Virus record (IMG/VR): IMGVR_UViG_3300037420_001136
Coordinates: 27,891 to 91,890 of that record
Reading direction: 5' to 3' (one strand)
DNA length: 64,000 bases
Source of the DNA: a virus
How positions within the stretch are numbered: position 1 is the first letter of the stretch; every line of letters starts with the position of its first letter. Positions 44,733 to 54,691 of this stretch are shown here, piece by piece. A program made the translations under genes and the position numbers. Below the pieces are notes generated by a model, which had not been told where the DNA came from, did not search any database, and saw nothing but the letters and a program-made list of their open reading frames with translations.

Positions 44733-44761
44733 TTTACCTTTGAGAGACGCTTTGGCATATA
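44733..44761 (+). promoter_or_regulatory. sigma70-like promoter with spacer GA
   Basis: TTTACC-tttGA(17)-CATATA. Confidence 0.55.
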
Positions 44762-44825
44762 GGGGTTGCTGGCAAGGGGCCAGTCCGCCACGGCAAGGGC
44801 GGTCATCAAGCAGGAGTACTCAGCA

Positions 44826-45482
44826 ATGAGCAAAAATCGTAACAAGGGCGGAGCTCGCCCGCAGAACGACGGCAGCGGCGGCGCGCTCACCGTCAGCGAC
44901 AGCACTGGCTCGGCCGAGGGCAAGGCGCCCGAGGGTGGCGAGTCCGGCGCTGCCGAGGCGGCTGCACCCGACCCGTTCGCCGACGTGCCGGTCACCAAGA
45001 TCGGCGACGACGTGGAGTTCAGCGACTTCTCGGACACGCCCACGGCGGATCCGCGCAAGTATGCCAACGTCCACGCGGCTGCGGTCGGCGATCGCCTTCC
45101 GACGGTCAAGGGCTGGAAGCACGAGCGTGCCATGCTCGTTCCGGGTACCAACCGGAAGGAGTTCAAGCAGGGCTCGGTGTACGGCACCATCCAGCAGATC
45201 GTCAACGCTGCTGGCCGCACCGGAATCCCGGCGTACGTCGTGGCTACCAAACTGCGTCGGCTCCAGGTCGGCAACAAGCGGTCGCACTACTGCGGCACCG
45301 GCGAGGTCGCCCAGCTCCCGCCCATCGGTTGGGCCGAGGGCTGGCTGAACACGGCGATTACCAAGAACATCGCCGGCGTCCACCCGACCAAGCAGGCTCC
45401 GGCCCTCCGCGAGGAGGTCACCGAGGGCGAGGCCAACGTCAACAAGGCCGAGTCGCAGGGCAAGCTCGCAGCCAACGGCTGA
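44826..45482 (+). CDS. Hypothetical protein, stand-alone transcription unit; possible paralog of island protein 51955-52473
   Basis: AGGAG RBS, own promoter and terminator, strongly GC3-biased codons; IGWAEGWLN motif. Confidence 0.75.
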   Translation: MSKNRNKGGARPQNDGSGGALTVSDSTGSAEGKAPEGGESGAAEAAAPDPFADVPVTKIGDDVEFSDFSDTPTADPRKYANVHAAAVGDRLPTVKGWKHERAMLVPGTNRKEFKQGSVYGTIQQIVNAAGRTGIPAYVVATKLRRLQVGNKRSHYCGTGEVAQLPPIGWAEGWLNTAITKNIAGVHPTKQAPALREEVTEGEANVNKAESQGKLAANG

Positions 45483-45502
45483 CGCTCCCCGCGACAAAGG
45501 GT

Positions 45503-45542
45503 CCCCGCCGAGGCTTGCTTGCCCTCGGCGGGGATTTCTTTT
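45503..45542 (+). terminator. Intrinsic terminator
   Basis: CCCCGCCGAGG...CCTCGGCGGGG followed by ATTTCTTTT. Confidence 0.75.
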
Positions 45543-45776
45543 GCCTCGGCGTCGTGATCACGCTGAGATCCCATCTTGAGACGCGAGAGAAGAGAGAGAA
45601 GAGCGGTGAGTACGCCCCGCTGCGGCTGGCCTAGGGCGGCTGCTCCAAAGCCCCTCGAGGACCCCACAAACCGCTCCTACAGCACGTCTACGGGTGCGGG
45701 CGCTACACGGGTACCCGTGTGGGCGAGATGCGCTGTAGGATGCCTCTCAGAAAGCTCCAGTGGCTAACTCAAACTG

Positions 45777-45805
45777 TTGCGCGTGGAGCAGGGCGCGGCT
45801 AACCT
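45777..45805 (+). promoter_or_regulatory. sigma70-like promoter with spacer GA
   Basis: TTGCGC-gtgGA(17)-TAACCT. Confidence 0.7.
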
Positions 45806-45834
45806 ACGTAGGTAGGCAAAGGAGGATCTCCACA

Positions 45835-46101
45835 ATGCAGGCCGCATTACTCAGCAGCGTCTTCCAAGGCGCTATTCCGCACTTCCCAGCGAGCACGGGG
45901 TTCGGGATTATTAACTTCGTGCAGTCGTGCCGTCATCCGCGCGACGCCGTCGTGCTGTGCTATCGGAACGAGTCCGGCGTAGACGAGTTCGTCGTGTGGA
46001 CCGCCAACATGATCGAGGGCGGTTGCCACGTCGGCTCGTACTGCTCGACGTTCGATCAGGCGTGGACGGAGTTCCAACGTCGCGTGGGGAGTCTGAGCTG
46101 A
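45835..46101 (+). CDS. Hypothetical protein
   Basis: AAGGAGG RBS. Confidence 0.65.
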   Translation: MQAALLSSVFQGAIPHFPASTGFGIINFVQSCRHPRDAVVLCYRNESGVDEFVVWTANMIEGGCHVGSYCSTFDQAWTEFQRRVGSLS

Positions 46102-46286
46102 TGCCTCTCACCCGCGAGCAAGTCATCGTCACGCGCTTCTGCGTCGAGGCCGAGATCAAGCGCGTGGAGAAATTCGTCGAGGAGCACGGCGGATTAGAAG
46201 ATCCTCTGAACAATCCGTTTAAGTTCTGGCTGGAAGTCGCGCGCGATGCTCAGCAAGAGCTCATTAATCAGCAAGAAGGGAAGTAA
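46101..46286 (+). CDS. Hypothetical protein
   Basis: TGATG coupling. Confidence 0.55.
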   Translation: MPLTREQVIVTRFCVEAEIKRVEKFVEEHGGLEDPLNNPFKFWLEVARDAQQELINQQEGK

Positions 46287-46288
46287 TC

Positions 46289-46564
46289 ATGGGTTCAATG
46301 CGTTTCATGTCCACGATGGACGGTCGCCCGCCGAAGCTCTTCAGCTTCGACTCGTCTCCTGGTCACGCGATTGCGGTCGCGCTCGGCGATCTGGACGAGA
46401 AGTCCTACCAGAGCGAGCTCAAGGAAGTCCTTCCCGACGGCGAGGAGGTCTATGAGATCCGTATGCGTCGCGCGCAGACCGACGTCAATCCCGGCCCCCA
46501 TCCGCTCTGCAAGGTGGGAGTAATCCACTACAAGCAGCCGTCGTACATGAGCAATCTGCGCTAG
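46289..46564 (+). CDS. Hypothetical protein
   Basis: Operon context. Confidence 0.55.
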   Translation: MGSMRFMSTMDGRPPKLFSFDSSPGHAIAVALGDLDEKSYQSELKEVLPDGEEVYEIRMRRAQTDVNPGPHPLCKVGVIHYKQPSYMSNLR

Positions 46565-46590
46565 GCGCTGGAGGAAGGCCGCGCTATTCT
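46562..46590 (+). promoter_or_regulatory. sigma70-like promoter with spacer GA
   Basis: TAGGCG-ctgGA(17)-TATTCT. Confidence 0.55.
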
Positions 46591-46616
46591 GAAGGGGTAA
46601 GGCAAAGGAGGCGGTT

Positions 46617-46841
46617 ATGTTTCTGCAGTCCTTCCGACCCCCTCGCGGGGTCAGTCGGCAGCCCGTTCCAAATCAGAGGGCGCGCTGGGCGTTCCTGTGC
46701 GGCATCGGACCGCTGGAGAATCCGTATCCAGTCGGCTCGGCCGAGGCTATTGCCTGGACGGCCAACTGGTTCCAGGAGAAGCAAGACATGGACGAGATGA
46801 TCATCGCTCTGTGTCACGAGAGAGGGAGGTTAGGCAAATGA
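46617..46841 (+). CDS. Hypothetical protein
   Basis: AAGGAGG RBS. Confidence 0.6.
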   Translation: MFLQSFRPPRGVSRQPVPNQRARWAFLCGIGPLENPYPVGSAEAIAWTANWFQEKQDMDEMIIALCHERGRLGK

Positions 46842-47566
46842 GCGAGAAGAGCAAGGCGGATTTGGAGCGCGTCAAGCGCGTAATCCAGGCTCTGCAAGCC
46901 AAGACGCAGGACAACGGCTGCACGGAGGAGGAGGCGCTCGCCGCCGCCGAGAAGCTCGGTCAGCTGCTGGAGGAGCACAACCTCAACATCGACGAGGTCG
47001 GCGTCCGTGACGAGACGGCTGAGTGTCGCAAGAACGAGGTCTTCGCGGCTGACGACTTCGCCGGTACGCTGGTGGTCGGCATCAAGCACTTCTGCGGCAT
47101 CATCGCTTACCGCGAGCACGGCTCGGGTCACGCGGGCAAGTACGTGTTCTTCGGCACGGCGCACGACGTGGAGATCGCTCTGTATCTCTACGAGATTTGC
47201 GCCGAGGCGATGGACAACGACTGGCAGTCCTTCATGGACAGGCACGGCTACTCCATGAAGAAGCGTATGTCGTTCCGCGCTGGCTTCGCGCATCGCGTGT
47301 ACGATCGCCTGATGCAGATGAAGCGCGAGCGCGACGAGCGTAGTCGCAAGGCGACCGGAACGGCGCTAATGGTCCTCAAGGATCAGCTCGTAACCGAGGC
47401 GTTCCAGCGTCAGCTCGGCATCAAGCTGGTGAAGTCTCGCGAAAGTCGCAATATGGCGGCAGATCCCAACGCGTACCGCGAGGGTATGGCGGCCGGAGCT
47501 CGCGTCAATCTTAACAATCCGCTCGGTAATCCGGCCGGGAACAATCAGGCTTTGGCGGGCGACTGA
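46838..47566 (+). CDS. DUF2786-domain protein
   Basis: RVIQALQAKT.DNGCTEEEALAAAEK..QLL..HNL N-terminus; SF..GFA.R...RL; AYREG.AAG..V.L. Confidence 0.8.
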   Translation: MSEKSKADLERVKRVIQALQAKTQDNGCTEEEALAAAEKLGQLLEEHNLNIDEVGVRDETAECRKNEVFAADDFAGTLVVGIKHFCGIIAYREHGSGHAGKYVFFGTAHDVEIALYLYEICAEAMDNDWQSFMDRHGYSMKKRMSFRAGFAHRVYDRLMQMKRERDERSRKATGTALMVLKDQLVTEAFQRQLGIKLVKSRESRNMAADPNAYREGMAAGARVNLNNPLGNPAGNNQALAGD

Positions 47567-47580
47567 TGCGCGGGTACAGT
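47552..47580 (+). promoter_or_regulatory. sigma70-like promoter with spacer GA
   Basis: TTGGCG-ggcGA(17)-TACAGT. Confidence 0.65.
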
Positions 47581-47607
47581 GGGGCATTGGCAGCAGGAGA
47601 ATAGTCA

Positions 47608-47958
47608 ATGCCCCGCTCAGTTCTCACGCCCGAAATGATCGCCCATGCAGACTCAGTCTACGCTAAGGCGGGCTTTGTTCCTCGCCGCAAGGGTCAGCGC
47701 TACCCTGCGCTCGCGTGGGGCCTCTGCGACTTCTACGATCAACAGGGTCGGGCGCACAAGACAGTCGCCAATCCAGTCATCTCTCTGGTGGAGTATCTCG
47801 GCACCTTTCAGGGCTGGGATCATTACGGCAGCATCACCACCTACCGCGCCTTCGCGGTTCGTCTCAAGGATGGGTCGGTGGTCGCTGGGTACAGCCGTGA
47901 CGAAGACTCCTACGTGCTGTGTCAGCATCAGGGCTACCTCCGCAACCGCCCGAGTTAA
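47608..47958 (+). CDS. Hypothetical protein
   Basis: AGGAG RBS. Confidence 0.6.
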   Translation: MPRSVLTPEMIAHADSVYAKAGFVPRRKGQRYPALAWGLCDFYDQQGRAHKTVANPVISLVEYLGTFQGWDHYGSITTYRAFAVRLKDGSVVAGYSRDEDSYVLCQHQGYLRNRPS

Positions 47959-47983
47959 AAGGCGGTAATCATGACCACCTAGG

Positions 47984-48012
47984 TTGTAGCTTGACCCAAT
48001 CTGGTGTATAAG
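47984..48012 (+). promoter_or_regulatory. sigma70-like promoter with spacer GA
   Basis: TTGTAG-cttGA(17)-TATAAG. Confidence 0.6.
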
Positions 48013-48051
48013 TTGTCTGTTGGGTACAGGGGCAACTGAAGGAGCACCCAC

Positions 48052-48270
48052 ATGACGCAGTTCAGTAGAGACGGTCTAGTAGTCGCACGACACCCCGGAT
48101 CGAGGCTCTTCCTCGCAGGAGGAGTAAGGTCTCATCCGGCCTTCGAGGGTCCGTCCGAGCGGACCATCTTCTTCAAGAGCGAGACGGCTGAGGCAGAGCT
48201 CAAGGCGATGCACATCCCGCCGAGCTCCGTGGAACTAGTCGGCGCCAAGCTCTCGCTCGCGATCGGCTGA
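48052..48270 (+). CDS. Hypothetical protein
   Basis: AAGGAG RBS. Confidence 0.6.
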   Translation: MTQFSRDGLVVARHPGSRLFLAGGVRSHPAFEGPSERTIFFKSETAEAELKAMHIPPSSVELVGAKLSLAIG

Positions 48271-48377
48271 GGCCCGTCTGGACTAGTCTCGGGGGCATAG
48301 CTAGTCCAGGCCCGGAGGCGGCGGTGACGGACCCACCTCCCTCGTCTCACCGCCGCCTCGCAGGGATCAGTCCACCG

Positions 48378-48406
48378 TGGTGCCACGACTAAAGCGACTG
48401 TATGCT
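48378..48406 (+). promoter_or_regulatory. sigma70-like promoter with spacer GA (weak -35)
   Basis: TGGTGC-cacGA(17)-TATGCT then GTAAGGGTAGGC. Confidence 0.55.
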
Positions 48407-48435
48407 GTAAGGGTAGGCAGCAACAGGAGTCGCAC

Positions 48436-48807
48436 GTGGCACAGCAGTTCAAACAACGCTCCGATCTTCTTCTCGCCGTCCAGGACGTCTTGGATCCCGA
48501 CGGCACTACGCAGGCGCCTGAGTTCACAGCCATCGCTTACGCCGTCAACTCCCTCAAGATGGACGTTGCGTACACCATGTTCGACGATCAGGTTGACGTG
48601 ATGCCCGCCTGCTTTGAGATGCTACCCGAGGAGGTATGCTCCTCGTGGTCGGGCTCGGCCGAGAAGTCGCTCGGTTACGGCGGCTGCGCGATTCTGCGGA
48701 CCCAGCATGGCAACGGTCTTCGCGTGTGGCTAGGTGGCTCGCATCTCGCCTCCGCCACGGGCTTCGTCATTCTGCCGTCCGCTTGCGTAGAGGTACTCGG
48801 TCTGTAG
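48436..48807 (+). CDS. Hypothetical protein
   Basis: AGGAG RBS. Confidence 0.6.
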   Translation: MAQQFKQRSDLLLAVQDVLDPDGTTQAPEFTAIAYAVNSLKMDVAYTMFDDQVDVMPACFEMLPEEVCSSWSGSAEKSLGYGGCAILRTQHGNGLRVWLGGSHLASATGFVILPSACVEVLGL

Positions 48808-48821
48808 CGATCAGTCCGTAC

Positions 48822-48850
48822 TTGCGCTTTGAGCAAAGGCGTGGCAGAGT
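48822..48850 (+). promoter_or_regulatory. sigma70-like promoter with spacer GA
   Basis: TTGCGC-tttGA(17)-CAGAGT. Confidence 0.55.
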
Positions 48851-48883
48851 TCTTGTGTTGGTTGCATCAAGGAGGAACGCCCC

Positions 48884-49165
48884 ATGCCAAGTCAATTTCC
48901 GCAGATGTTCGGTGCGCCGCAACCCTCGTTCGAGCTCGTCGGGCAGGACGGCAGCATCGAGGTCTCGCGCACGTCGATGTTCACGCGGCAGCGGAACACG
49001 ATGCGTCTACCGATAACTCGCGAGCAGTTCGGTCGCTGGCAGGCCGGAGCGTTGATCCAGGACGCGTTCCCGCATCTCACGCCCGACCAGCGCGAGTTCA
49101 TTCAAACGGGCGCGACGCCCGAGGAGTGGGCGAAGGTGTTCCCGCCCGAGGAGGAAGACGAATGA
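48884..49165 (+). CDS. Conserved-type phage hypothetical protein
   Basis: W..GALIQDAFPHLTPDQREFI.TG.TPEEW...F pattern; AAGGAGG RBS. Confidence 0.75.
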   Translation: MPSQFPQMFGAPQPSFELVGQDGSIEVSRTSMFTRQRNTMRLPITREQFGRWQAGALIQDAFPHLTPDQREFIQTGATPEEWAKVFPPEEEDE

Positions 49166-49485
49166 TTACGCTTCTCGCACTCGCCGTAGCGGCGGCAGCG
49201 TCTCCCACGACGACGCTTCTCTGCCAGACGTCCGGCTTTCAGGACGTCACGCTCTCGCTCAACGAGCAGCGAGGAGAGGCCTCCTGGGAGGTTCCCTCTC
49301 GCGGGACGTCGGGAGTCTCGCCGGCTGTCTTCGCTCCCTCCACCGTCGTGATCGAGGGAGCCGCGACGAGAGTGGTGGATCGTAGCACGCTGGACTATAC
49401 CGTCGGTGCGATGCAATACGGTCAGTTCATTCCGTTCTCTCGCGGCCACTGCACGGTCGTCTCCGCTCCGGAGCGTAAGTTCTAG
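49162..49485 (+). CDS. Small exported protein
   Basis: MITLLALAVAAAA signal peptide; paired Cys. Confidence 0.6.
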   Translation: MITLLALAVAAAASPTTTLLCQTSGFQDVTLSLNEQRGEASWEVPSRGTSGVSPAVFAPSTVVIEGAATRVVDRSTLDYTVGAMQYGQFIPFSRGHCTVVSAPERKF

Positions 49486-49497
49486 AGCAGTCCACGC

Positions 49498-49526
49498 TTG
49501 GCGCGCGACGGAAGCCACCGCATACT
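49498..49526 (+). promoter_or_regulatory. sigma70-like promoter with spacer GA
   Basis: TTGGCG-cgcGA(17)-CATACT then GCAAGGGTAGGC. Confidence 0.7.
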
Positions 49527-49765
49527 GCAAGGGTAGGCGGCAGTAGGAGTTAGGGCCGTGTTTCTCTGTACCATCGGGTGTGTCTGACAGGTCGCCCGCC
49601 CAAAAGTCAGCCGAGGGATGGCGGTGCGCGTCCATCTCCCGCAGCGGGCGCTATGTCCGCTCAGGCATTCCGCGAGTCAATCGCTGCTGCCGTCCGGACG
49701 CGGCTCAACGTCCGGCTTCGCAAGCCGTGGTTCTCACCACGGTTTCCGTTGAGAAAGGGGAAGAT

Positions 49766-49999
49766 ATGATTGGCGAGGCAATACGGGCGGAACTCCGCCG
49801 CCCGCTGGAGGGAGACCGTCGCTTCGTCCACACCACGCAGGTCGCGTCGTGGGACAGGGCGGGGTACTTCGTCGTCCGGCATCATCCGGAGCACATCGCA
49901 GCCGTTCTGGCCGAGAAGGCTCGCATCCGCGTCCAGGAGGACGTCGCGGCGTACCGTCGTCTGCTGACGCTGGAGCGCAACATGCGGTTGTTCGGCTGA
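49766..49999 (+). CDS. Hypothetical protein
   Basis: AAGGGG RBS. Confidence 0.5.
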   Translation: MIGEAIRAELRRPLEGDRRFVHTTQVASWDRAGYFVVRHHPEHIAAVLAEKARIRVQEDVAAYRRLLTLERNMRLFG

Positions 50000-50094
50000 T
50001 GTGCAGGGCAGCGAAGATCTTACTCTGCGTCGCGTGGGTCTTGGCGTGCTGCCTCCTGGTGCTCGTCGTCGGCCCAGGATAGAGGCGTCCGCGC

Positions 50095-50123
50095 TTGCGC
50101 GCCGAGAAGCCCGAGCGTATCCT
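50095..50123 (+). promoter_or_regulatory. sigma70-like promoter with spacer GA
   Basis: TTGCGC-gccGA(17)-TATCCT then GCAAGGGTAGC. Confidence 0.7.
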
Positions 50124-50151
50124 GCAAGGGTAGCAAGCAAAGGAGCTCACA

Positions 50152-50496
50152 ATGCACCTAGTTGATCGCCCCGCCATCGGCGAGGTCAACGGTCTGCCCT
50201 ACGGCACGGGCGTGGCGTACCACGATCAGTGGCGCGACGCTCGCACGGTGGACTGGGCCGAGCCTCACCTCAGGGTAGTCCGGTTCCGGCTGCTCAGCGA
50301 TCCGGGCCTTCCGTTCTGGGACGTCTCGTACTGTCTGGGCGTCCTGGCTCACACGGACGAGCACGTTCGCGTGGAGTTGCCGTTCAGTCAGCTTCCCAAG
50401 CGCGGCTGGAAGCGAGCCGTTGTCGAGCACGCGATTCGCGACGGAGTCCACGCTGCTCGGCTCGGCATGTTCGACAACGCGAGCACTCTCTGCTAG
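50152..50496 (+). CDS. Hypothetical protein
   Basis: RLLSDPG.PFWDVSYC.G...V.LPF.QL; AAGGAG RBS. Confidence 0.7.
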   Translation: MHLVDRPAIGEVNGLPYGTGVAYHDQWRDARTVDWAEPHLRVVRFRLLSDPGLPFWDVSYCLGVLAHTDEHVRVELPFSQLPKRGWKRAVVEHAIRDGVHAARLGMFDNASTLC

Positions 50497-50506
50497 GAGA
50501 AGTCCA

Positions 50507-50752
50507 ATGCTAGAACCTCAGTGGCAGCACGACTGTAGCGGCTGCATCTTCCTCGGCCAAGTCGGGAGCAAGGACGTCTGGCAGTGCGACGGGATCGACT
50601 TGATCCTCCGTCACGGGTCGTCGCCGGAGGAGAACGCATCTCTGCCGGTGGACATCGTTCGCCTGCATCGCCGTCACATTCCGGAGTGGAACATGGCACT
50701 TCAGCTCTTCGACGCCTACATGCTCGGTCGCGAGCGGGCGCTGGTTCGGTAG
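50507..50752 (+). CDS. Hypothetical protein
   Basis: P.W.HDC..C.FLG....DVW.C; AGGAG RBS. Confidence 0.65.
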   Translation: MLEPQWQHDCSGCIFLGQVGSKDVWQCDGIDLILRHGSSPEENASLPVDIVRLHRRHIPEWNMALQLFDAYMLGRERALVR

Positions 50753-50762
50753 GGAGGTAGGA

Positions 50763-50981
50763 ATGACTCAGGGTATATTCCACGTGACGCTCCGCGGCGA
50801 GGACGGATCCATCTTCACTCGCGAGTTCAGCGGATCGCCGGAGTACATTCTGGAGAAAGCTCGAGAGCTCTGGCCAGAGGCCGAGGTTCTGGATTGGTTC
50901 GACCCCGTGGAGAGGGAGGAGGAGATCTATCGTCGCGTCTGTCGGCGTATGGACGACGAGGACGTTTACCACGACGACTAG
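50763..50981 (+). CDS. Hypothetical protein
   Basis: GGAGG RBS. Confidence 0.6.
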   Translation: MTQGIFHVTLRGEDGSIFTREFSGSPEYILEKARELWPEAEVLDWFDPVEREEEIYRRVCRRMDDEDVYHDD

Positions 50982-50994
50982 GATCAGTCTGCGC

Positions 50995-51023
50995 TAGGTG
51001 CGCGAGCAGGATCGAGGCATACT
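50995..51023 (+). promoter_or_regulatory. sigma70-like promoter with spacer GA (weak -35)
   Basis: TAGGTG-cgcGA(17)-CATACT then GCAAGGGTAGGC. Confidence 0.6.
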
Positions 51024-51053
51024 GCAAGGGTAGGCAGTAAAAGGACTTGGGCC

Positions 51054-51371
51054 ATGTCGGCACCTCAAGAGCTCATTGATTTACTCCGCGCCAGCAACGT
51101 GCCGGTCTTCGTAAAGACCGACAACTACGTGCCCGCGCACATCGGCCTCGTCCCAGGGTCGCGCACAATCGGGGACGATTGGGACGAAGAGCGTATGCGC
51201 GACTATCTGTACGGCGAGGCGTCCCTCAACAATCGCGGCGGCTACGCTCAGCGCGGCTACGTCATGATCTTCTTGGGCGACGCCAAGTATCACTCATGGG
51301 TGCGCGCCTATCGCGTCACGTTCACAGGCGACGTCGCCACTGGCTCTTATCTCTGGGAAAGGATTGACTAA
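51054..51371 (+). CDS. Hypothetical protein
   Basis: AAGGA RBS. Confidence 0.6.
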   Translation: MSAPQELIDLLRASNVPVFVKTDNYVPAHIGLVPGSRTIGDDWDEERMRDYLYGEASLNNRGGYAQRGYVMIFLGDAKYHSWVRAYRVTFTGDVATGSYLWERID

Positions 51372-51649
51372 TGCGTACGATCACTCACAGCAACGGTCTC
51401 ATGTTCTTCGTCGGCATCGTCGCGCTCGCCAGCGGATTTCTGCTCGGCTCGCGCGTCGCGCCTCAGCCGCTCAACAGCGAGCTCGCCGACGCTCAGGTCG
51501 TCGCACAGAACCGCGACGTGCGCTGGATTGCCTACGGCTGCGAGGGCAACTCCACGATCATCGCCCGCGACATGCCGGACGTCATGCAGTGCCGCGAGGC
51601 TCGCCGGCTGAGCGAGGTTCAGTCGTTCGGCGTTCCTCCGCGGTACTGA
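51371..51649 (+). CDS. Small membrane-anchored protein
   Basis: N-terminal TM; TAATG coupling. Confidence 0.55.
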   Translation: MRTITHSNGLMFFVGIVALASGFLLGSRVAPQPLNSELADAQVVAQNRDVRWIAYGCEGNSTIIARDMPDVMQCREARRLSEVQSFGVPPRY

Positions 51650-51800
51650 GTCGCTCGTCGTTTGACGGGACGGATCTGATATACGATCAGCTCCGTCCTC
51701 ATCTCGTCTCTCTGCGTCGTGATCACGTCCGGAGGTAGAGGGCGATCTGGACGAAGATCTAGGCGCTTCTCTGCACTCCTCTCGGCGTCCTTTTGCTGCG

Positions 51801-51838
51801 GCGCCAAACACTCGGTTCACCGCGCCAAACACTCGGTT
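51801..51838 (+). repeat. Tandem 17-bp direct repeat at the left edge of the island
   Basis: GCGCCAAACACTCGGTT at 51801 and 51822 (21-bp period). Confidence 0.85.
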
Positions 51839-51872
51839 TGCCGCAAATCTGGTCCGCGCCGCCGCGCCAAGG

Positions 51873-51901
51873 TTGCCATGCTGCCAAGGTGCGCGCATAT
51901 A
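51873..51901 (+). promoter_or_regulatory. sigma70-like island promoter (no GA)
   Basis: TTGCCA-17-CATATA. Confidence 0.65.
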
Positions 51902-51954
51902 CAGGCCAGCCGTTGCCATTGGGGCAGCGGCCAGCAAGCAAAGGTACAAACAAC

Positions 51955-52473
51955 ATGGCAAACCGTAACAACAGCAAAACCGCCGCCACTGCCAACGCCA
52001 AGGTAGCGCCCGCCTTGCGCGCCGCTGCCATTGTGGCGCGGCACGGCATGGCAGGGCAGGCGCGCGCCATTGCCGCTACTGGCGCAGCCGCCGCTAGCGC
52101 CAAGCGTTACAGCGCGCGCCTTGGCAGCCTTAACCCCGCATTTGCGGCCGCCACCTTTACGCTAACGCCACTTGGCAAACAGGCAGTGGCGGCCAACGGT
52201 TGTATTGGCAGCAAGGGCCAGCCAACAGTTATGGGCTTGTTTGCCGTAGCGTTGGCTAACGCCACAGCGGCCAACAATGGCGCGCCCGCCACAGGGCAGC
52301 AAGTTTGCTTGGCAATGCTTGGCAACCCGCAGCTTATGCAAGCTGCCTTGGCAACTAAGGCAGCAGGCACGCACCTAATACCCGCCAACACAACGGCAAT
52401 GGGCTGGGCGCAGGGCTATGTTAACGGCTTGTGCCGTAGCGCGCACGGCCTAGCCAAAAAGGCACTAGCCTAA
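51955..52473 (+). CDS. Island protein 1: 172 aa, Ala-rich, basic, no Asp/Glu
   Basis: GA-free SD AAAGGT 9 nt before ATG; TAA stop; MGWAQGYVN motif. Confidence 0.75.
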   Translation: MANRNNSKTAATANAKVAPALRAAAIVARHGMAGQARAIAATGAAAASAKRYSARLGSLNPAFAAATFTLTPLGKQAVAANGCIGSKGQPTVMGLFAVALANATAANNGAPATGQQVCLAMLGNPQLMQAALATKAAGTHLIPANTTAMGWAQGYVNGLCRSAHGLAKKALA

Positions 52474-52535
52474 CGCCTAGGGGCGCGGCTAACCGCCGCG
52501 CCCCAACCCGCCACACAAGCAAAAGGTAACGCAAC

Positions 52536-52769
52536 ATGTACACGCCAACACAAGCCAAGCCAGCCGCCGCGCCAACCCGCGCAAGCTACATGCGCGCCGC
52601 CCTGTACCATTACGCGCCCGCGCCCTATGCGCCGCGCCGTTACGGCAAGGTGCGCAGTATGGCCGCAATGCTGGCAAGCTATAGCCCCAAGGTACGCCAA
52701 GCTTACATGGCGCGGCAGTGGGCGCGCATTGCCAACGGCCAAGCGCCTAATTGGCCGCGCAAAAGCTAG
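52536..52769 (+). CDS. Island protein 2: 77 aa, Ala/Arg/Tyr-rich, no Asp/Glu
   Basis: Leader AAGCAAAAGGTAACGCAAC resembles that of protein 1; TAG stop; terminator follows. Confidence 0.7.
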   Translation: MYTPTQAKPAAAPTRASYMRAALYHYAPAPYAPRRYGKVRSMAAMLASYSPKVRQAYMARQWARIANGQAPNWPRKS

Positions 52770-52802
52770 GCCGGTTTTAAGCGCCACACAGGGCCGCAAC
52801 CC

Positions 52803-52836
52803 GCGCCCGCTACCTAGGTAGCGGGCGCTTTGCTTT
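52803..52836 (+). terminator. Intrinsic terminator closing the island operon
   Basis: GCGCCCGCTAC-CTAG-GTAGCGGGCGC-TTTGCTTT. Confidence 0.8.
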
Positions 52837-52986
52837 GCGCCTGTACGTGCACGCTAGGTGGCATAGCGGCCAAGGCGCTATGGTACCTAGGCCCCATATA
52901 CCCCACGCCCACCACGCGGGCCTCAGTCACTGTAGGCGCAGAATTCTCTCGAAAATTCGAAGAATTCTCACTCCTCTCATCGTCAC

Positions 52987-53016
52987 TTGTCAACCGACCT
53001 CCCTCCATGCTACATC
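52987..53016 (+). promoter_or_regulatory. sigma70-like promoter with spacer GA (portal)
   Basis: TTGTCA-accGA(18)-TACATC. Confidence 0.55.
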
Positions 53017-53047: not shown

Positions 53048-54691
53048 TTGGCCGATCCCACCACAAACGCCTACGCTCGTGCTCAGCGAATCGGCACTCC
53101 TCGCTCGCACCTCGCCACGACTCTCGCCATCCCGGGAGCCATGGACCTCGCCCCCGATCTCTCCTACTCAAACAAGTTCGACATGTGGGCGACTCTCCGC
53201 GACTGCTACGACGGAGAATCCACGATCAAGAACGCCGGACAGCAGTATCTCCCGAAGCTGGCCGCGCACAAGGACGGTGACTACGACGTCTACAAGTCGC
53301 GAGCCTACTTCTACAACGCCGTTCGCCGCACCCATCGCGGACTCATGGGAAGTCTTTTCCGGAAGCCAGTCGAGTTCACCCTACCGGCATCTCTCAAGTC
53401 GCGACTCAATCTAAATCGCATCAGCATCGACGCCAAGTCGGCCGCCGACTTCTGCAGGATCCTCGGTCACGAGGTACTCCTCACAGGACGATTCGGCATT
53501 CTGGCCGACTTCAAGGACTCCAACTGGCAGTCGCCGTATCTCGCGGGCTACATCGGCGAGAATATCTTCTCGTGGCGCACGAGGGTCTGGAAGGATCGCG
53601 AGGTAGTCGATCGCGTAGTCCTCCTGGAGCAGGAGCCGATTCTCAGCGACTACGGCTTCACCACTCAGCTGCTCGTTCGCATTCTTCGCCTGGATCCCAA
53701 CTCCGAGGGTACGGATCTCGTCTACAGTCAGACCGAGATTCGTCCCGTGATCAATCCCACGGCGTCGGAGTCCGGTGTTCAGCCGACGGTGACTCAGATT
53801 CCCATCAAGGTGCGCGCCGGTCGCACTCTCAACTACATTCCCTTCGTGTTCGTCAACGCGACCAACACCCGACCAGACGTGGGGCCTGCGCCTCTCGAGG
53901 ACATCGCGACGATCAACATCTCGCACTACCAGAGCACGGCGCATCTGGAGCACGGACGATTCTACGCGGGTATGCCGACCTACGTCACGTCGGGCAGCGC
54001 CTCGGCGCAGATGCCCGGACTTCCCGAGGGGGTCGCGAACCCCTCACCGCTCACGGTCGGCCCCAGCTACGTCTGGGAGCTGGAGGAGAACGCGAAGGCG
54101 TGGCTGCTGGAGTTCAACGGTCACGGGCTGACGTTTCTGGAGAACGCTGTCGACTCGAAGCAGCTCCAGATGCAGTCGCTCGGTGGTCGCCTCATCTCCT
54201 CGACCCGCAGAGCCGCTGCCCTGAGTGACGAGGCATGGCAGCTTCTCGAGACGGGGGATGAGGCGACCCTGATGGACGTGGCGTGCACGGCCGACGAGGC
54301 GATGAGCACTGCGATCGCCTACATGGGCGACATCATGGGGCAGATTCCAGACATGAGCGATCACGGCGTGGTCGTGGAGTTCAACAAGGAGTTTGTTCGC
54401 TCGGAGCTCACGGCTCGCGAGCTTCGTGCTCTTCAGGCTCTTCGCGAGCGCGGTCACATTCCCGAGGACGTGATGTACTACGCGCTGCGGGAGGTCGGGG
54501 TCATCCCGATCGAGTACACGCTGGAGGACTTCAAGGCGCTGATGGCTCGGAAGGATCAGCAGTACGAGCCGCCGCTGCCGCCCGCCTCGGGAGGCCTCGA
54601 CACAGGACCGGCCGGAGGCCCCACTCCGGGAGTTCGGCCTCAGACTAAGCCTAATCCTGCAAACAATCCCTCTGGAGGAAGTCCGGACTAA
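53048..54691 (+). CDS. Portal protein (DUF4055 type)
   Basis: W...RDCYDGE..IK.AG..YLP.....Y..Y..RA.FYN...RT..GL.G..FRKP; IPFVF; PL.DIA.INISHYQ..A.LEHG. Confidence 0.88.
   Translation: MADPTTNAYARAQRIGTPRSHLATTLAIPGAMDLAPDLSYSNKFDMWATLRDCYDGESTIKNAGQQYLPKLAAHKDGDYDVYKSRAYFYNAVRRTHRGLMGSLFRKPVEFTLPASLKSRLNLNRISIDAKSAADFCRILGHEVLLTGRFGILADFKDSNWQSPYLAGYIGENIFSWRTRVWKDREVVDRVVLLEQEPILSDYGFTTQLLVRILRLDPNSEGTDLVYSQTEIRPVINPTASESGVQPTVTQIPIKVRAGRTLNYIPFVFVNATNTRPDVGPAPLEDIATINISHYQSTAHLEHGRFYAGMPTYVTSGSASAQMPGLPEGVANPSPLTVGPSYVWELEENAKAWLLEFNGHGLTFLENAVDSKQLQMQSLGGRLISSTRRAAALSDEAWQLLETGDEATLMDVACTADEAMSTAIAYMGDIMGQIPDMSDHGVVVEFNKEFVRSELTARELRALQALRERGHIPEDVMYYALREVGVIPIEYTLEDFKALMARKDQQYEPPLPPASGGLDTGPAGGPTPGVRPQTKPNPANNPSGGSPD

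What the first reader, a model, noticed from the sequence alone, without database searches (positions are those of the whole stretch)
44826..52473. Island protein 1 resembles an Asp/Glu-free paralog of the stand-alone gene at 44826-45482
The C-terminal parts align by eye: ..GSVYGTIQQIVNAA..GIPAYVV.....PPIGWAEGWLNTAITKNIAG (44826) versus ..PTVMGLFAVALANA..GAPATGQQV.....TAMGWAQGYVNGLCRSAHG (51955). The GWAEG/GWAQG pair shows the E->Q swap needed to remove a GA. The 44826 gene has its own GA-type promoter, a terminator and codons suggesting high expression. Inference: a bootstrap copy made from unmodifiable DNA switches on a conventional copy of the same factor, making this family the best candidate for the reader of the mark. 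Similarity is short and could be chance.
Basis: partly seen in the sequence, partly recalled or inferred. Interest (0 to 1): 0.78.

Follow-up and report, generated by a model that had tools for sequence, protein, structure and literature searches.

The report
Two winged-helix phage proteins, doubtful paralogs
The acid-free protein made from this soil phage's GA/TC-free DNA island and the separate gene 7 kb upstream share a winged-helix fold and one short motif, but are not shown to be copies of one gene; the upstream gene turns out to be a free-standing copy of the front module of a bacterial anti-phage helicase-nuclease.

Summary
The quoted similarity is real, but it does not establish paralogy. 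BLASTP aligns only IGWAEGWLN with MGWAQGYVN (E 0.015). Five profile-profile comparisons give probability 1-19% (P 0.001-0.04). The motif score still lies about 6 SD above column shuffles, and the motif occurs in only these 2 of 735 genome ORFs.

AlphaFold models give both proteins a C-terminal winged-helix domain with the motif at the start of the third helix. Twenty structural templates are shared over the same ranges. The N-terminal halves differ. I read them as at most ancient relatives, not a recent recoded duplicate.

- **Acid-free state is derived.** Island protein 1 has distant relatives of its own that contain Asp/Glu.
- **The stand-alone protein has a bacterial counterpart.** Its domain is 43-53% identical to the N-terminal module of 2,000-residue Hhe/PDC-S37-type defence helicase-nucleases in Sphingomonadales.
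- **The island is real and conserved.** It is 1,070 bp with no GA/TC, kept in all related loci fetched. All 78 protein-1 relatives are acid-free bar one Glu, and all 24 protein-2 relatives are acid-free.
- **A modification pathway is present.** The genome carries a 5-hmdU kinase pathway, so a TC-directed thymidine mark is plausible.

The proposed bootstrap cascade is untested. The scan made the same by-eye pairing on another, related genome (e1-5901746).

The parts
44733..44764 (+). Promoter-like site upstream of the stand-alone gene: TTTACC, an 18-nt spacer with GA at positions 4-5, then ATATAG.
   Evidence: Read directly. It has the same layout as 14 other listed sites. The consensus scan did not report it.
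44826..45482 (+). Stand-alone gene P0001 (218 aa). It has an acidic disordered N-terminus (residues 1-75, pI 4.2), a basic winged-helix-type domain (about residues 95-191, pI 10.7) and an acidic tail.
   Evidence: GC3 is 0.86. The domain is 43-53% identical to the N-terminal module of Hhe/PDC-S37-type proteins.
45514..45542 (+). Weak terminator-like hairpin with a T-rich tail after the stand-alone gene.
51853..52923 (.). GA/TC-free island. It spans 1,070 bp between two flanking TC dinucleotides and has no GA on either strand.
   Evidence: the next longest gap in the 91.9-kb genome is 54 bp, and GA/TC are over-represented genome-wide (odds 1.29 and 1.44). The island is conserved in all related loci fetched. 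Thirty-one natural variants create no GA/TC, against 8.4 expected.
51873..51902 (+). Candidate island promoter: TTGCCA, an 18-nt spacer with TG where other promoters have GA, then ATATAC.
   Evidence: Read directly. This is an inference from layout only.
51955..52473 (+). Island protein 1, P0002 (172 aa, pI 11.4, 29% Ala, no Asp/Glu). It has a helical N-terminal part and a C-terminal winged-helix-type domain (about residues 88-172).
   Evidence: (pLDDT 91.5).
52480..52504 (+). GC-rich hairpin between the two island cistrons.
   Evidence: Read directly.
52536..52769 (+). Island protein 2, P0003 (77 aa, pI 11.1, no Asp/Glu). It carries an invariant HYAPxPY...RRYG core.
   Evidence: all 24 cluster representatives are acid-free.
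52803..52838 (+). Intrinsic terminator-like hairpin (11 pairs, 9 of them G-C) plus a T-rich tail. It closes the island transcription unit.

Best explanation
These are two different winged-helix proteins of one soil-phage clade. They may be anciently related through that domain, but they are not a recent recoded pair.

**Stand-alone protein (44826-45482).**
- It is probably an abundant early protein: a basic winged-helix-type domain flanked by acidic, disordered tails.
- That domain is a free-standing copy of the extra N-terminal module found on giant Hhe/PDC-S37-type defence proteins in Sphingomonadales. These combine DUF4011, an Upf1-like helicase and an MTES_1575 endonuclease.
- The module is therefore most likely a nucleic-acid or target-recognition unit. 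In the phage it would either bind the phage's own DNA, shielding or reading it, or act as a decoy that blocks the matching host defence protein. This step is inferred.

**Island protein 1 (51955-52473).**
- It belongs to a separate, well-folding and very basic family.
- Its lack of Asp/Glu is a by-product of a DNA-level ban on GA/TC across the whole promoter-to-terminator unit. This is shown directly.
- The acid-free state is derived, because more distant relatives carry Asp/Glu.

**Why GA/TC is banned.** The ban probably exists because the phage's thymidine hypermodification acts in a TC context. The pathway would comprise a 5-hmdU DNA kinase, a TET-associated glycosyltransferase, a thymidylate-synthase-like enzyme and an HD nucleotidase. 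The island would then be the one stretch that cannot be marked. This is inferred; the base and its sequence context were not measured.
For: **Fold and motif.**
- Both models are confident over the domain: P0002 pLDDT 91.5, and P0001 above 90 over residues 50-190.
- VIA-align lists for both are dominated by winged-helix domains. Twenty entries are shared, with matching template ranges. For example, 2ma3 residues 598-660 align to P0002 87-172, and 2ma3 600-661 to P0001 115-191. Likewise 5ehk_B 188-287 aligns to P0002 59-172, and 190-287 to P0001 97-188.
- The motif is the N-terminus of helix 3 in both models. It is unique to these two ORFs in the genome and scores about 6 SD above shuffles.

**Separate families.**
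- hhalign probabilities are 1-19%.
- A profile search of 1.84 billion representatives with the island family returns 16 proteins, none from the P0001 family. P0182, P0183, P0184 and P0187 carry 5-16 Asp/Glu.
- Where the acid-free members read GNPQL, P0183 reads GNAEL and P0182 reads GLPDV.

**Defence link.**
- Five bacterial loci carry the P0001-like domain at the N-terminus of ORFs of 1,117 to 2,085 aa. BLASTP gives E 2e-23 and 1e-27, and LPPIGWAEGWID is conserved.
- Pfam finds DUF4011, AAA_11/AAA_12 and MTES_1575. PADLOC finds PDC-S37 (7e-298) and Hhe (2e-198). Neighbouring genes are a Type III-like methyltransferase and a GajB/UvrD-like helicase.

**Island.**

**Modification genes.** HMUDK_hel 4e-43, TAGT 1.6e-12, Thymidylat_synt 3.5e-21 and a YfbR-like HD domain.

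**Precedents.** A phage T-dioxygenase prefers NTC (PMC13229309). Hypermodification is specific to sequence context (PMC8989533).
Against: - The two models could not be superposed directly.
- No experiment or read data show which base is modified or in which context. No RNA data were available.
- The function of the N-terminal module in Hhe-type proteins is unknown. 'Recognition module', 'shield' and 'decoy' are all inferences.
- The bacterial fusion is rare: 5 genomes in a scan of 185,579 species, and 1 of 301 sampled genomes of the order.
Confidence: 0.55

Rival explanations
1. Island protein 1 is an Asp/Glu-free paralog of the 44826 protein. It is expressed first from DNA that cannot be marked. 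It then switches on GA-type promoters, including that of the conventional copy, which then reads the mark genome-wide.
For: - The two share a fold and a motif at the same structural position.
- The swap is a one-base change, GAG to CAG.
- The two families co-occur in every related phage locus long enough to show both.
- The island has its own promoter-like site without the spacer GA, and its own terminator.
- The 44826 promoter has the GA.
- The 44826 domain is used as the front module of DNA-targeting defence enzymes.
Against: - No profile comparison is significant.
- The N-terminal halves have different architectures.
- The island family has its own acid-containing relatives distinct from the 44826 family.
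- There is no evidence on the order of expression, on promoter binding, or that the mark affects transcription.
Confidence: 0.15
2. The resemblance is chance or convergence. These would be two unrelated winged-helix proteins that happen to share a Gly-Trp-Ala-x-Gly start to the recognition helix.
For: - HH probabilities are 1-19%.
- hmmsearch E-values are 0.15 or worse against only 735 ORFs.
- The pair was chosen by eye from a whole genome.
Against: - The motif is invariant or nearly so in both families and unique to them in the genome.
- It sits at the same place in the same fold.
- Both domains have an unusually long helix 2 to helix 3 linker with a conserved Lys and His/Tyr.
- Distant island-family members add an LPP/LPC element, as in the 44826 family.
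- The score is 6 SD above the shuffle null.
Confidence: 0.3

Closest known systems
Hhe / PDC-S37-type defence helicase-nucleases (DUF4011, Upf1-like SF1 helicase, MTES_1575/Vsr-like endonuclease), in the variants found in Sphingomonadales
   Same: The N-terminal 60-205 residues of these proteins are 43-53% identical to residues 67-193 of the stand-alone phage protein, including LPPIGWAEGW.
   Different: The phage protein has no helicase or nuclease part and adds acidic tails. The module lies outside the PADLOC PDC-S37 and Hhe profiles: neither P0001 nor P0002 matches them. Island protein 1 was not found in those bacterial genomes.
Winged-helix DNA-binding domains (for example MCM C-terminal WH 2ma3, SAMD1 WH 6lui, cullin WHB 3o6b, MecI 1okr, and the RRE-like domains of MibB/TbtB)
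   Same: Both proteins show the same order of helices and strands, and both align to the same template ranges.
Thymidine-hypermodifying phages (M6, ViI, SP10, PhiW-14) and the NTC-preferring phage T-dioxygenase 5mYOX97
   Same: The genome has a 5-hmdU DNA kinase and a thymidylate-synthase-like enzyme. Modification in these systems is context-specific (PMC8989533), and a TC preference is documented for one phage enzyme (PMC13229309).
   Different: This genome pairs the kinase with a TET-associated glycosyltransferase. No motif-free island was found in the papers searched. The modified base and its context are unknown here.
Phage proteins that deal with the phage's own modified DNA (SPO1 TF1 on hmU DNA; T4 MotA/AsiA at middle promoters). 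This comparison is from general knowledge, not tested here.
   Same: The concept is the same: an abundant or early phage DNA-binding protein tuned to the phage's own DNA or promoters.
   Different: TF1 has an HU fold and MotA a double-wing fold. There is no sequence or fold relation, and no binding data exist for the proteins here.

Membership tests
One protein family containing both P0001 and P0002 (paralogs) | A significant profile-profile or profile-sequence match | tested here: not met
   hhalign probability is 5%, 19%, 2%, 1% and 6.5%. hmmsearch E is 0.15 or worse in 735 ORFs.
One protein family containing both P0001 and P0002 (paralogs) | The same fold, with the conserved motif at the equivalent position | tested here: met
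One protein family containing both P0001 and P0002 (paralogs) | The same overall architecture | tested here: not met
   P0001 has a disordered acidic N-terminus, a beta-hairpin and one helix. P0002 has four or five helices before the domain.
N-terminal module of Hhe/PDC-S37-type defence proteins | Significant sequence similarity over the whole module | tested here: met
   For P0001: E 2e-23 to 1e-31 at 43-53% identity in five loci. For P0002: not found.
Hhe / PDC-S37 defence system | DUF4011, SF1 helicase and endonuclease domains | tested here: not met
   P0001 and P0002 have no match to PADLOC or Pfam. Only the bacterial fusion proteins have these domains.
Winged-helix DNA-binding proteins | H1-S1-H2-H3-S2-wing topology | tested here: met
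   The order of secondary-structure elements fits, and the VIA-align lists are almost wholly winged-helix domains.
Winged-helix DNA-binding proteins | Binds nucleic acid | not testable with these tools
   There is only indirect support: the domains are basic, with pI 10.7 and 11.4.
Thymidine hypermodification system | A 5-hmdU DNA kinase plus a route to 5-hmdU | tested here: met
   PF18723 at 4e-43, a thymidylate-synthase-like protein at 3.5e-21, and an HD nucleotidase. Whether the synthase-like enzyme hydroxymethylates dUMP was not tested.
Thymidine hypermodification system | Modification placed in a TC/GA context | not testable with these tools
   Only contigs were available, with no raw long reads. 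The inference rests on the island and on the genome-wide GA/TC excess.

The most novel reading that the evidence does not exclude
The two proteins would be diverged members of one winged-helix 'reader' family for the phage's TC-context thymidine mark.
- One copy has been recoded without acidic residues, so that its gene sits in the only DNA of the genome that cannot be marked. It would act at the start of infection.
- The other copy is the abundant conventional form.
- Sphingomonadales hosts have captured that conventional module as the sensor of an Hhe-type helicase-nuclease that attacks marked phage DNA.
Probability: 0.12. Interest if true: 0.88.

Novelty: new variant of a known kind. Interest (0 to 1): 0.6.

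Why it matters
- **A family recoded by a DNA rule.** A whole protein family has been rewritten without Asp or Glu because its DNA must avoid one dinucleotide. It still folds with high confidence, which bears on protein design and on how DNA-level rules shape proteins.
- **A handle on the defence protein.** The link between the stand-alone gene and the front module of Hhe-type proteins gives a way to test what that poorly understood defence recognises. It also allows a test of whether phages counter it with a free copy of the module.
- **A possible host.** The link points to Sphingomonadales as likely hosts of an uncultured soil-phage clade.
- **Limits of the original claim.** The paralogy claim would be a modest point even if true. 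Its value lies in tying the island to a candidate reader of the mark.

Tried and rejected
- **Family and phage searches, all blank.** Pfam and PHROG scans of all three proteins found nothing. megablast and tblastn against GenBank phages found no match.
- **Structure and profile searches, nothing useful.** Foldseek against PDB for both models had no hit at E <= 0.001. Foldseek against BFVD for P0001 gave nothing clear. PDB profile searches gave only chance hits. ESM Atlas gave no usable hit for P0002 and only leads below 0.9 for P0001.
- **Complex prediction** of island proteins 1 and 2 returned no verdict, score 0.01.
The DNA of the Asp/Glu-containing relatives could therefore not be fetched. 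Scans for P0182 and P0184 in viral and metagenome contigs found nothing, and alignment A4 was too variable to scan with.
- **No RNA holder was listed**.
- **A third candidate was rejected.** Another reader proposed the MarR-like protein before the kinase gene (P0215) as a third family member. It shows no relation: P 0.25 and 0.57.
- **RNA-level explanation rejected.** An RNase that spares GA-less mRNA does not fit, because both strands and the non-coding parts obey the rule.
- **Restriction-site avoidance rejected.** A ban on a dinucleotide confined to 1 kb is far stricter and more local than any known site avoidance.
Full report
**Setting**

The window is bases 27891-91890 of a 91,890-bp circularly assembled phage genome. 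The genome encodes:
- DNA polymerase I, a Dda-like helicase, ribonucleotide reductase, a ligase and a primase;
- the large terminase, the portal at 53048-54691, a scaffolding protein and a head decoration protein.

Near-identical DNA occurs in at least 10 soil and rhizosphere metagenome runs.

Just before the window lies a thymidine-modification block:
- a 5-hmdU DNA kinase (PF18723, 4e-43);
- a TET-associated glycosyltransferase (PF20691, 1.6e-12);
- a thymidylate-synthase-like enzyme;
- a YfbR-like HD nucleotidase.

**The observation**

Both ORFs and both quoted strings are present. Direct comparison is weak:
- BLASTP aligns only IGWAEGWLN with MGWAQGYVN (E 0.015).
- I built family alignments A1 (78 relatives of island protein 1) and A2 (95 relatives of the stand-alone protein). 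Their hhalign comparison gives probability 5% over 13 columns.
- Restricting to the C-terminal domains gives probability 19% and P 0.0012.
- Widening the island family with distant members (A3, A4), or adding bacterial sequences to the other family, gives 2%, 1% and 6.5%.
- hmmsearch of each profile against all 735 six-frame ORFs of the genome does not single out the other protein.

The motif is nevertheless not noise:
- The domain score of 22.7 is about 6 SD above 150 column shuffles, whose maximum is 16.5.
- GW[AC]xG[WY][VIL] occurs only in these two ORFs among 74,301 ORF residues.
- It is invariant or nearly so in both families.
- The E to Q difference is GAG versus CAG.

**Structures**

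AlphaFold2 with the family alignments gives a confident model of island protein 1 (pLDDT 91.5, pTM 0.85). This is notable for a protein with no acidic residue and 29% alanine. The model of the stand-alone protein is good over residues 50-190, with a disordered acidic N-terminus.

Foldseek finds nothing in PDB for either model. The exhaustive VIA-align search returns lists made almost entirely of winged-helix domains:

Twenty entries are shared between the two top-50 lists, with the same template ranges. They include extended matches to the RRE-like domains of MibB and TbtB, which also cover an extra strand before the domain. In both models the shared motif is the N-terminus of the third (recognition) helix. 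In both, an unusually long linker precedes it.

**Island protein 1 has its own lineage**

A profile search of 1.84 billion cluster representatives with A1 returns 16 proteins, all of island-protein length and aligned end to end. None belongs to the stand-alone family.
- Nine of the thirteen new ones are acid-free.
- P0181 has 2 Glu.
- P0182, P0183, P0184 and P0187 have 5, 7, 13 and 16 Asp/Glu.

Where the acid-free members read GNPQL, P0183 reads GNAEL and P0182 reads GLPDV. The acid-free state is therefore derived within this family by acid-to-amide and other replacements. It did not arise by copying the stand-alone gene.

The distant members also show an LPP/LPC-xx-W-xx-G-[YW]-V element. This looks more like the stand-alone family's LPPIGWAEGW, which keeps an ancient relationship open.

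**What the stand-alone gene is**

A scan of one genome for each of 185,579 species found the domain in five Sphingomonadales or proteobacterial genomes, among them Croceibacterium mercuriale. In each it forms the N-terminus of a very long ORF: 2,045 aa, 2,085 aa, 1,117 aa followed by a 954-aa second half, or an ORF cut by the contig end.
- Identity is 43-53%, E is 2e-23 to 1e-31, and LPPIGWAEGWID is conserved.
- These ORFs carry DUF4011, AAA_11/AAA_12 and the MTES_1575 endonuclease domain. They match PADLOC PDC-S37 (7e-298) and Hhe (2e-198).
- Their neighbours are a Type III-like methyltransferase and a GajB/UvrD-like helicase.
- The PDC-S37 profile begins only at about residue 263, so the phage-like domain is an added front module.
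- No GA/TC-free island and no island-protein homolog lies in these bacterial loci or genomes.
- The fusion is rare: 1 of 301 sampled genomes of the order.

The stand-alone phage protein is thus a free copy of what is most likely the recognition module of a host defence enzyme. Its domain is basic (pI 10.7) and lies between acidic tails. Its codon usage resembles that of the scaffolding gene. Whether it binds phage DNA, blocks the defence protein as a decoy, or both, is inference.

**The island**

Between 51853 and 52923 there is no GA or TC. The next longest gap in the whole genome is 54 bp, and both dinucleotides are over-represented genome-wide. The unit contains:
- a promoter-like site with the genome's usual layout but TG in place of the spacer GA;
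- two cistrons with GA-less AAGGT ribosome-binding sites;
- a hairpin between the cistrons;
- a strong terminator.

Every related locus fetched has the same island with zero or one exception:
- 1,102 bp, 570+682 bp and 821+393 bp;
- 1,032, 1,107 and 1,454 bp, 588+474 bp, at least 680 bp, and 496+589 bp.

The exceptions are single TCs at different places: three at different codon junctions inside the protein-1 gene and one outside it.

All 78 relatives of protein 1 are acid-free bar one Glu, and all 24 relatives of protein 2 are acid-free. Thirty-one natural variants seen in other soil samples create no GA/TC. Random placement of the same substitutions would create 8.4 on average and never gave zero in 2,000 trials.

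The stand-alone family lies about 5.5-7.5 kb upstream in every locus long enough to show it.

**Reading**

The rule covers both strands and the non-coding parts, so it acts on DNA rather than on protein or mRNA. Three things make a TC-context thymidine mark the most economical explanation:
- the kinase pathway in this genome;
- the published context-specificity of such modifications (PMC8989533);
- a phage T-dioxygenase that prefers NTC (PMC13229309).

This remains unmeasured. The defence-protein link gives the 'reader' idea some indirect support and also raises a decoy alternative.

**Verdict**

I put about 55% on two separate winged-helix families, possibly anciently related, with the stand-alone one shared with host defence proteins. 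I put about 15% on the bootstrap-paralog model and about 30% on pure chance or convergence.

The same by-eye pairing was noted by the scan on a related genome (e1-5901746). That note is not independent evidence.

Noticed in passing
L021:9833-15970 (Croceibacterium mercuriale NZ_JTDN01000004.1); also L018:154-6411, L019:1989-8282, L020:5111-9696 and L017:4344-5101: These are Hhe/PDC-S37-type giant helicase-nucleases that carry a phage-like N-terminal module. They sit next to a Type III-like methyltransferase and a GajB/UvrD-like helicase, which looks like a defence island. In L019 the gene is split into two ORFs.
   Followed up: partly
window 51802-51839: A direct repeat of CGCCAAACACTCGGTT with a 21-bp period lies just upstream of the island's promoter-like site. 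Related loci have different direct repeats at the same place: period 33 in L003 and L012, and period 25 in L008.
   Followed up: partly
window 51747-51762; also L001, L009, L014 and L016, about 90-120 bp before their islands: A conserved element resembling GATCTGGACGAAGATC, with GATCT/AGATC arms, recurs upstream of the islands in several lineages.
   Followed up: no
window 46592-46610, 48408-48426, 49528-49546, 50125-50143 and 51025-51043: Several early promoters are followed by a near-identical leader, CTGCAAGGGTAGGCAGCAA.
   Followed up: partly
protein P0182 (Logan contig of 14,969 bp, DNA not fetched): This distant relative of island protein 1 has 5 Asp but no Glu. A P0001-family protein (P0163) is recorded on a contig of the same length. 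The banned motif may differ in that phage, for example GAR rather than GA.
   Followed up: no
L003:10237, L014:3265, L016:7519 and L008:12663: The only GA/TC exceptions inside related islands are single TCs, each at a different site. Three lie at codon junctions inside the protein-1 gene (GGT-CAG, CCT-CAG, CAT-CCG). The L008 one lies outside the matched ORF.
   Followed up: yes
L005:662-1534 and L005:9-572 (genome 20662-21534 and 20009-20572): These ORFs match the Pam3 gp34-like and gp33-like families (PF23977 and PF23984), first described in a cyanophage.
   Followed up: no
window 52940-52975: The GA/TC-dense flank right after the island contains the palindromic stretch GAATTCTCTCGAAAATTCGAAGAATTCTC, ahead of the portal promoter-like site at 52987.
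   Followed up: no
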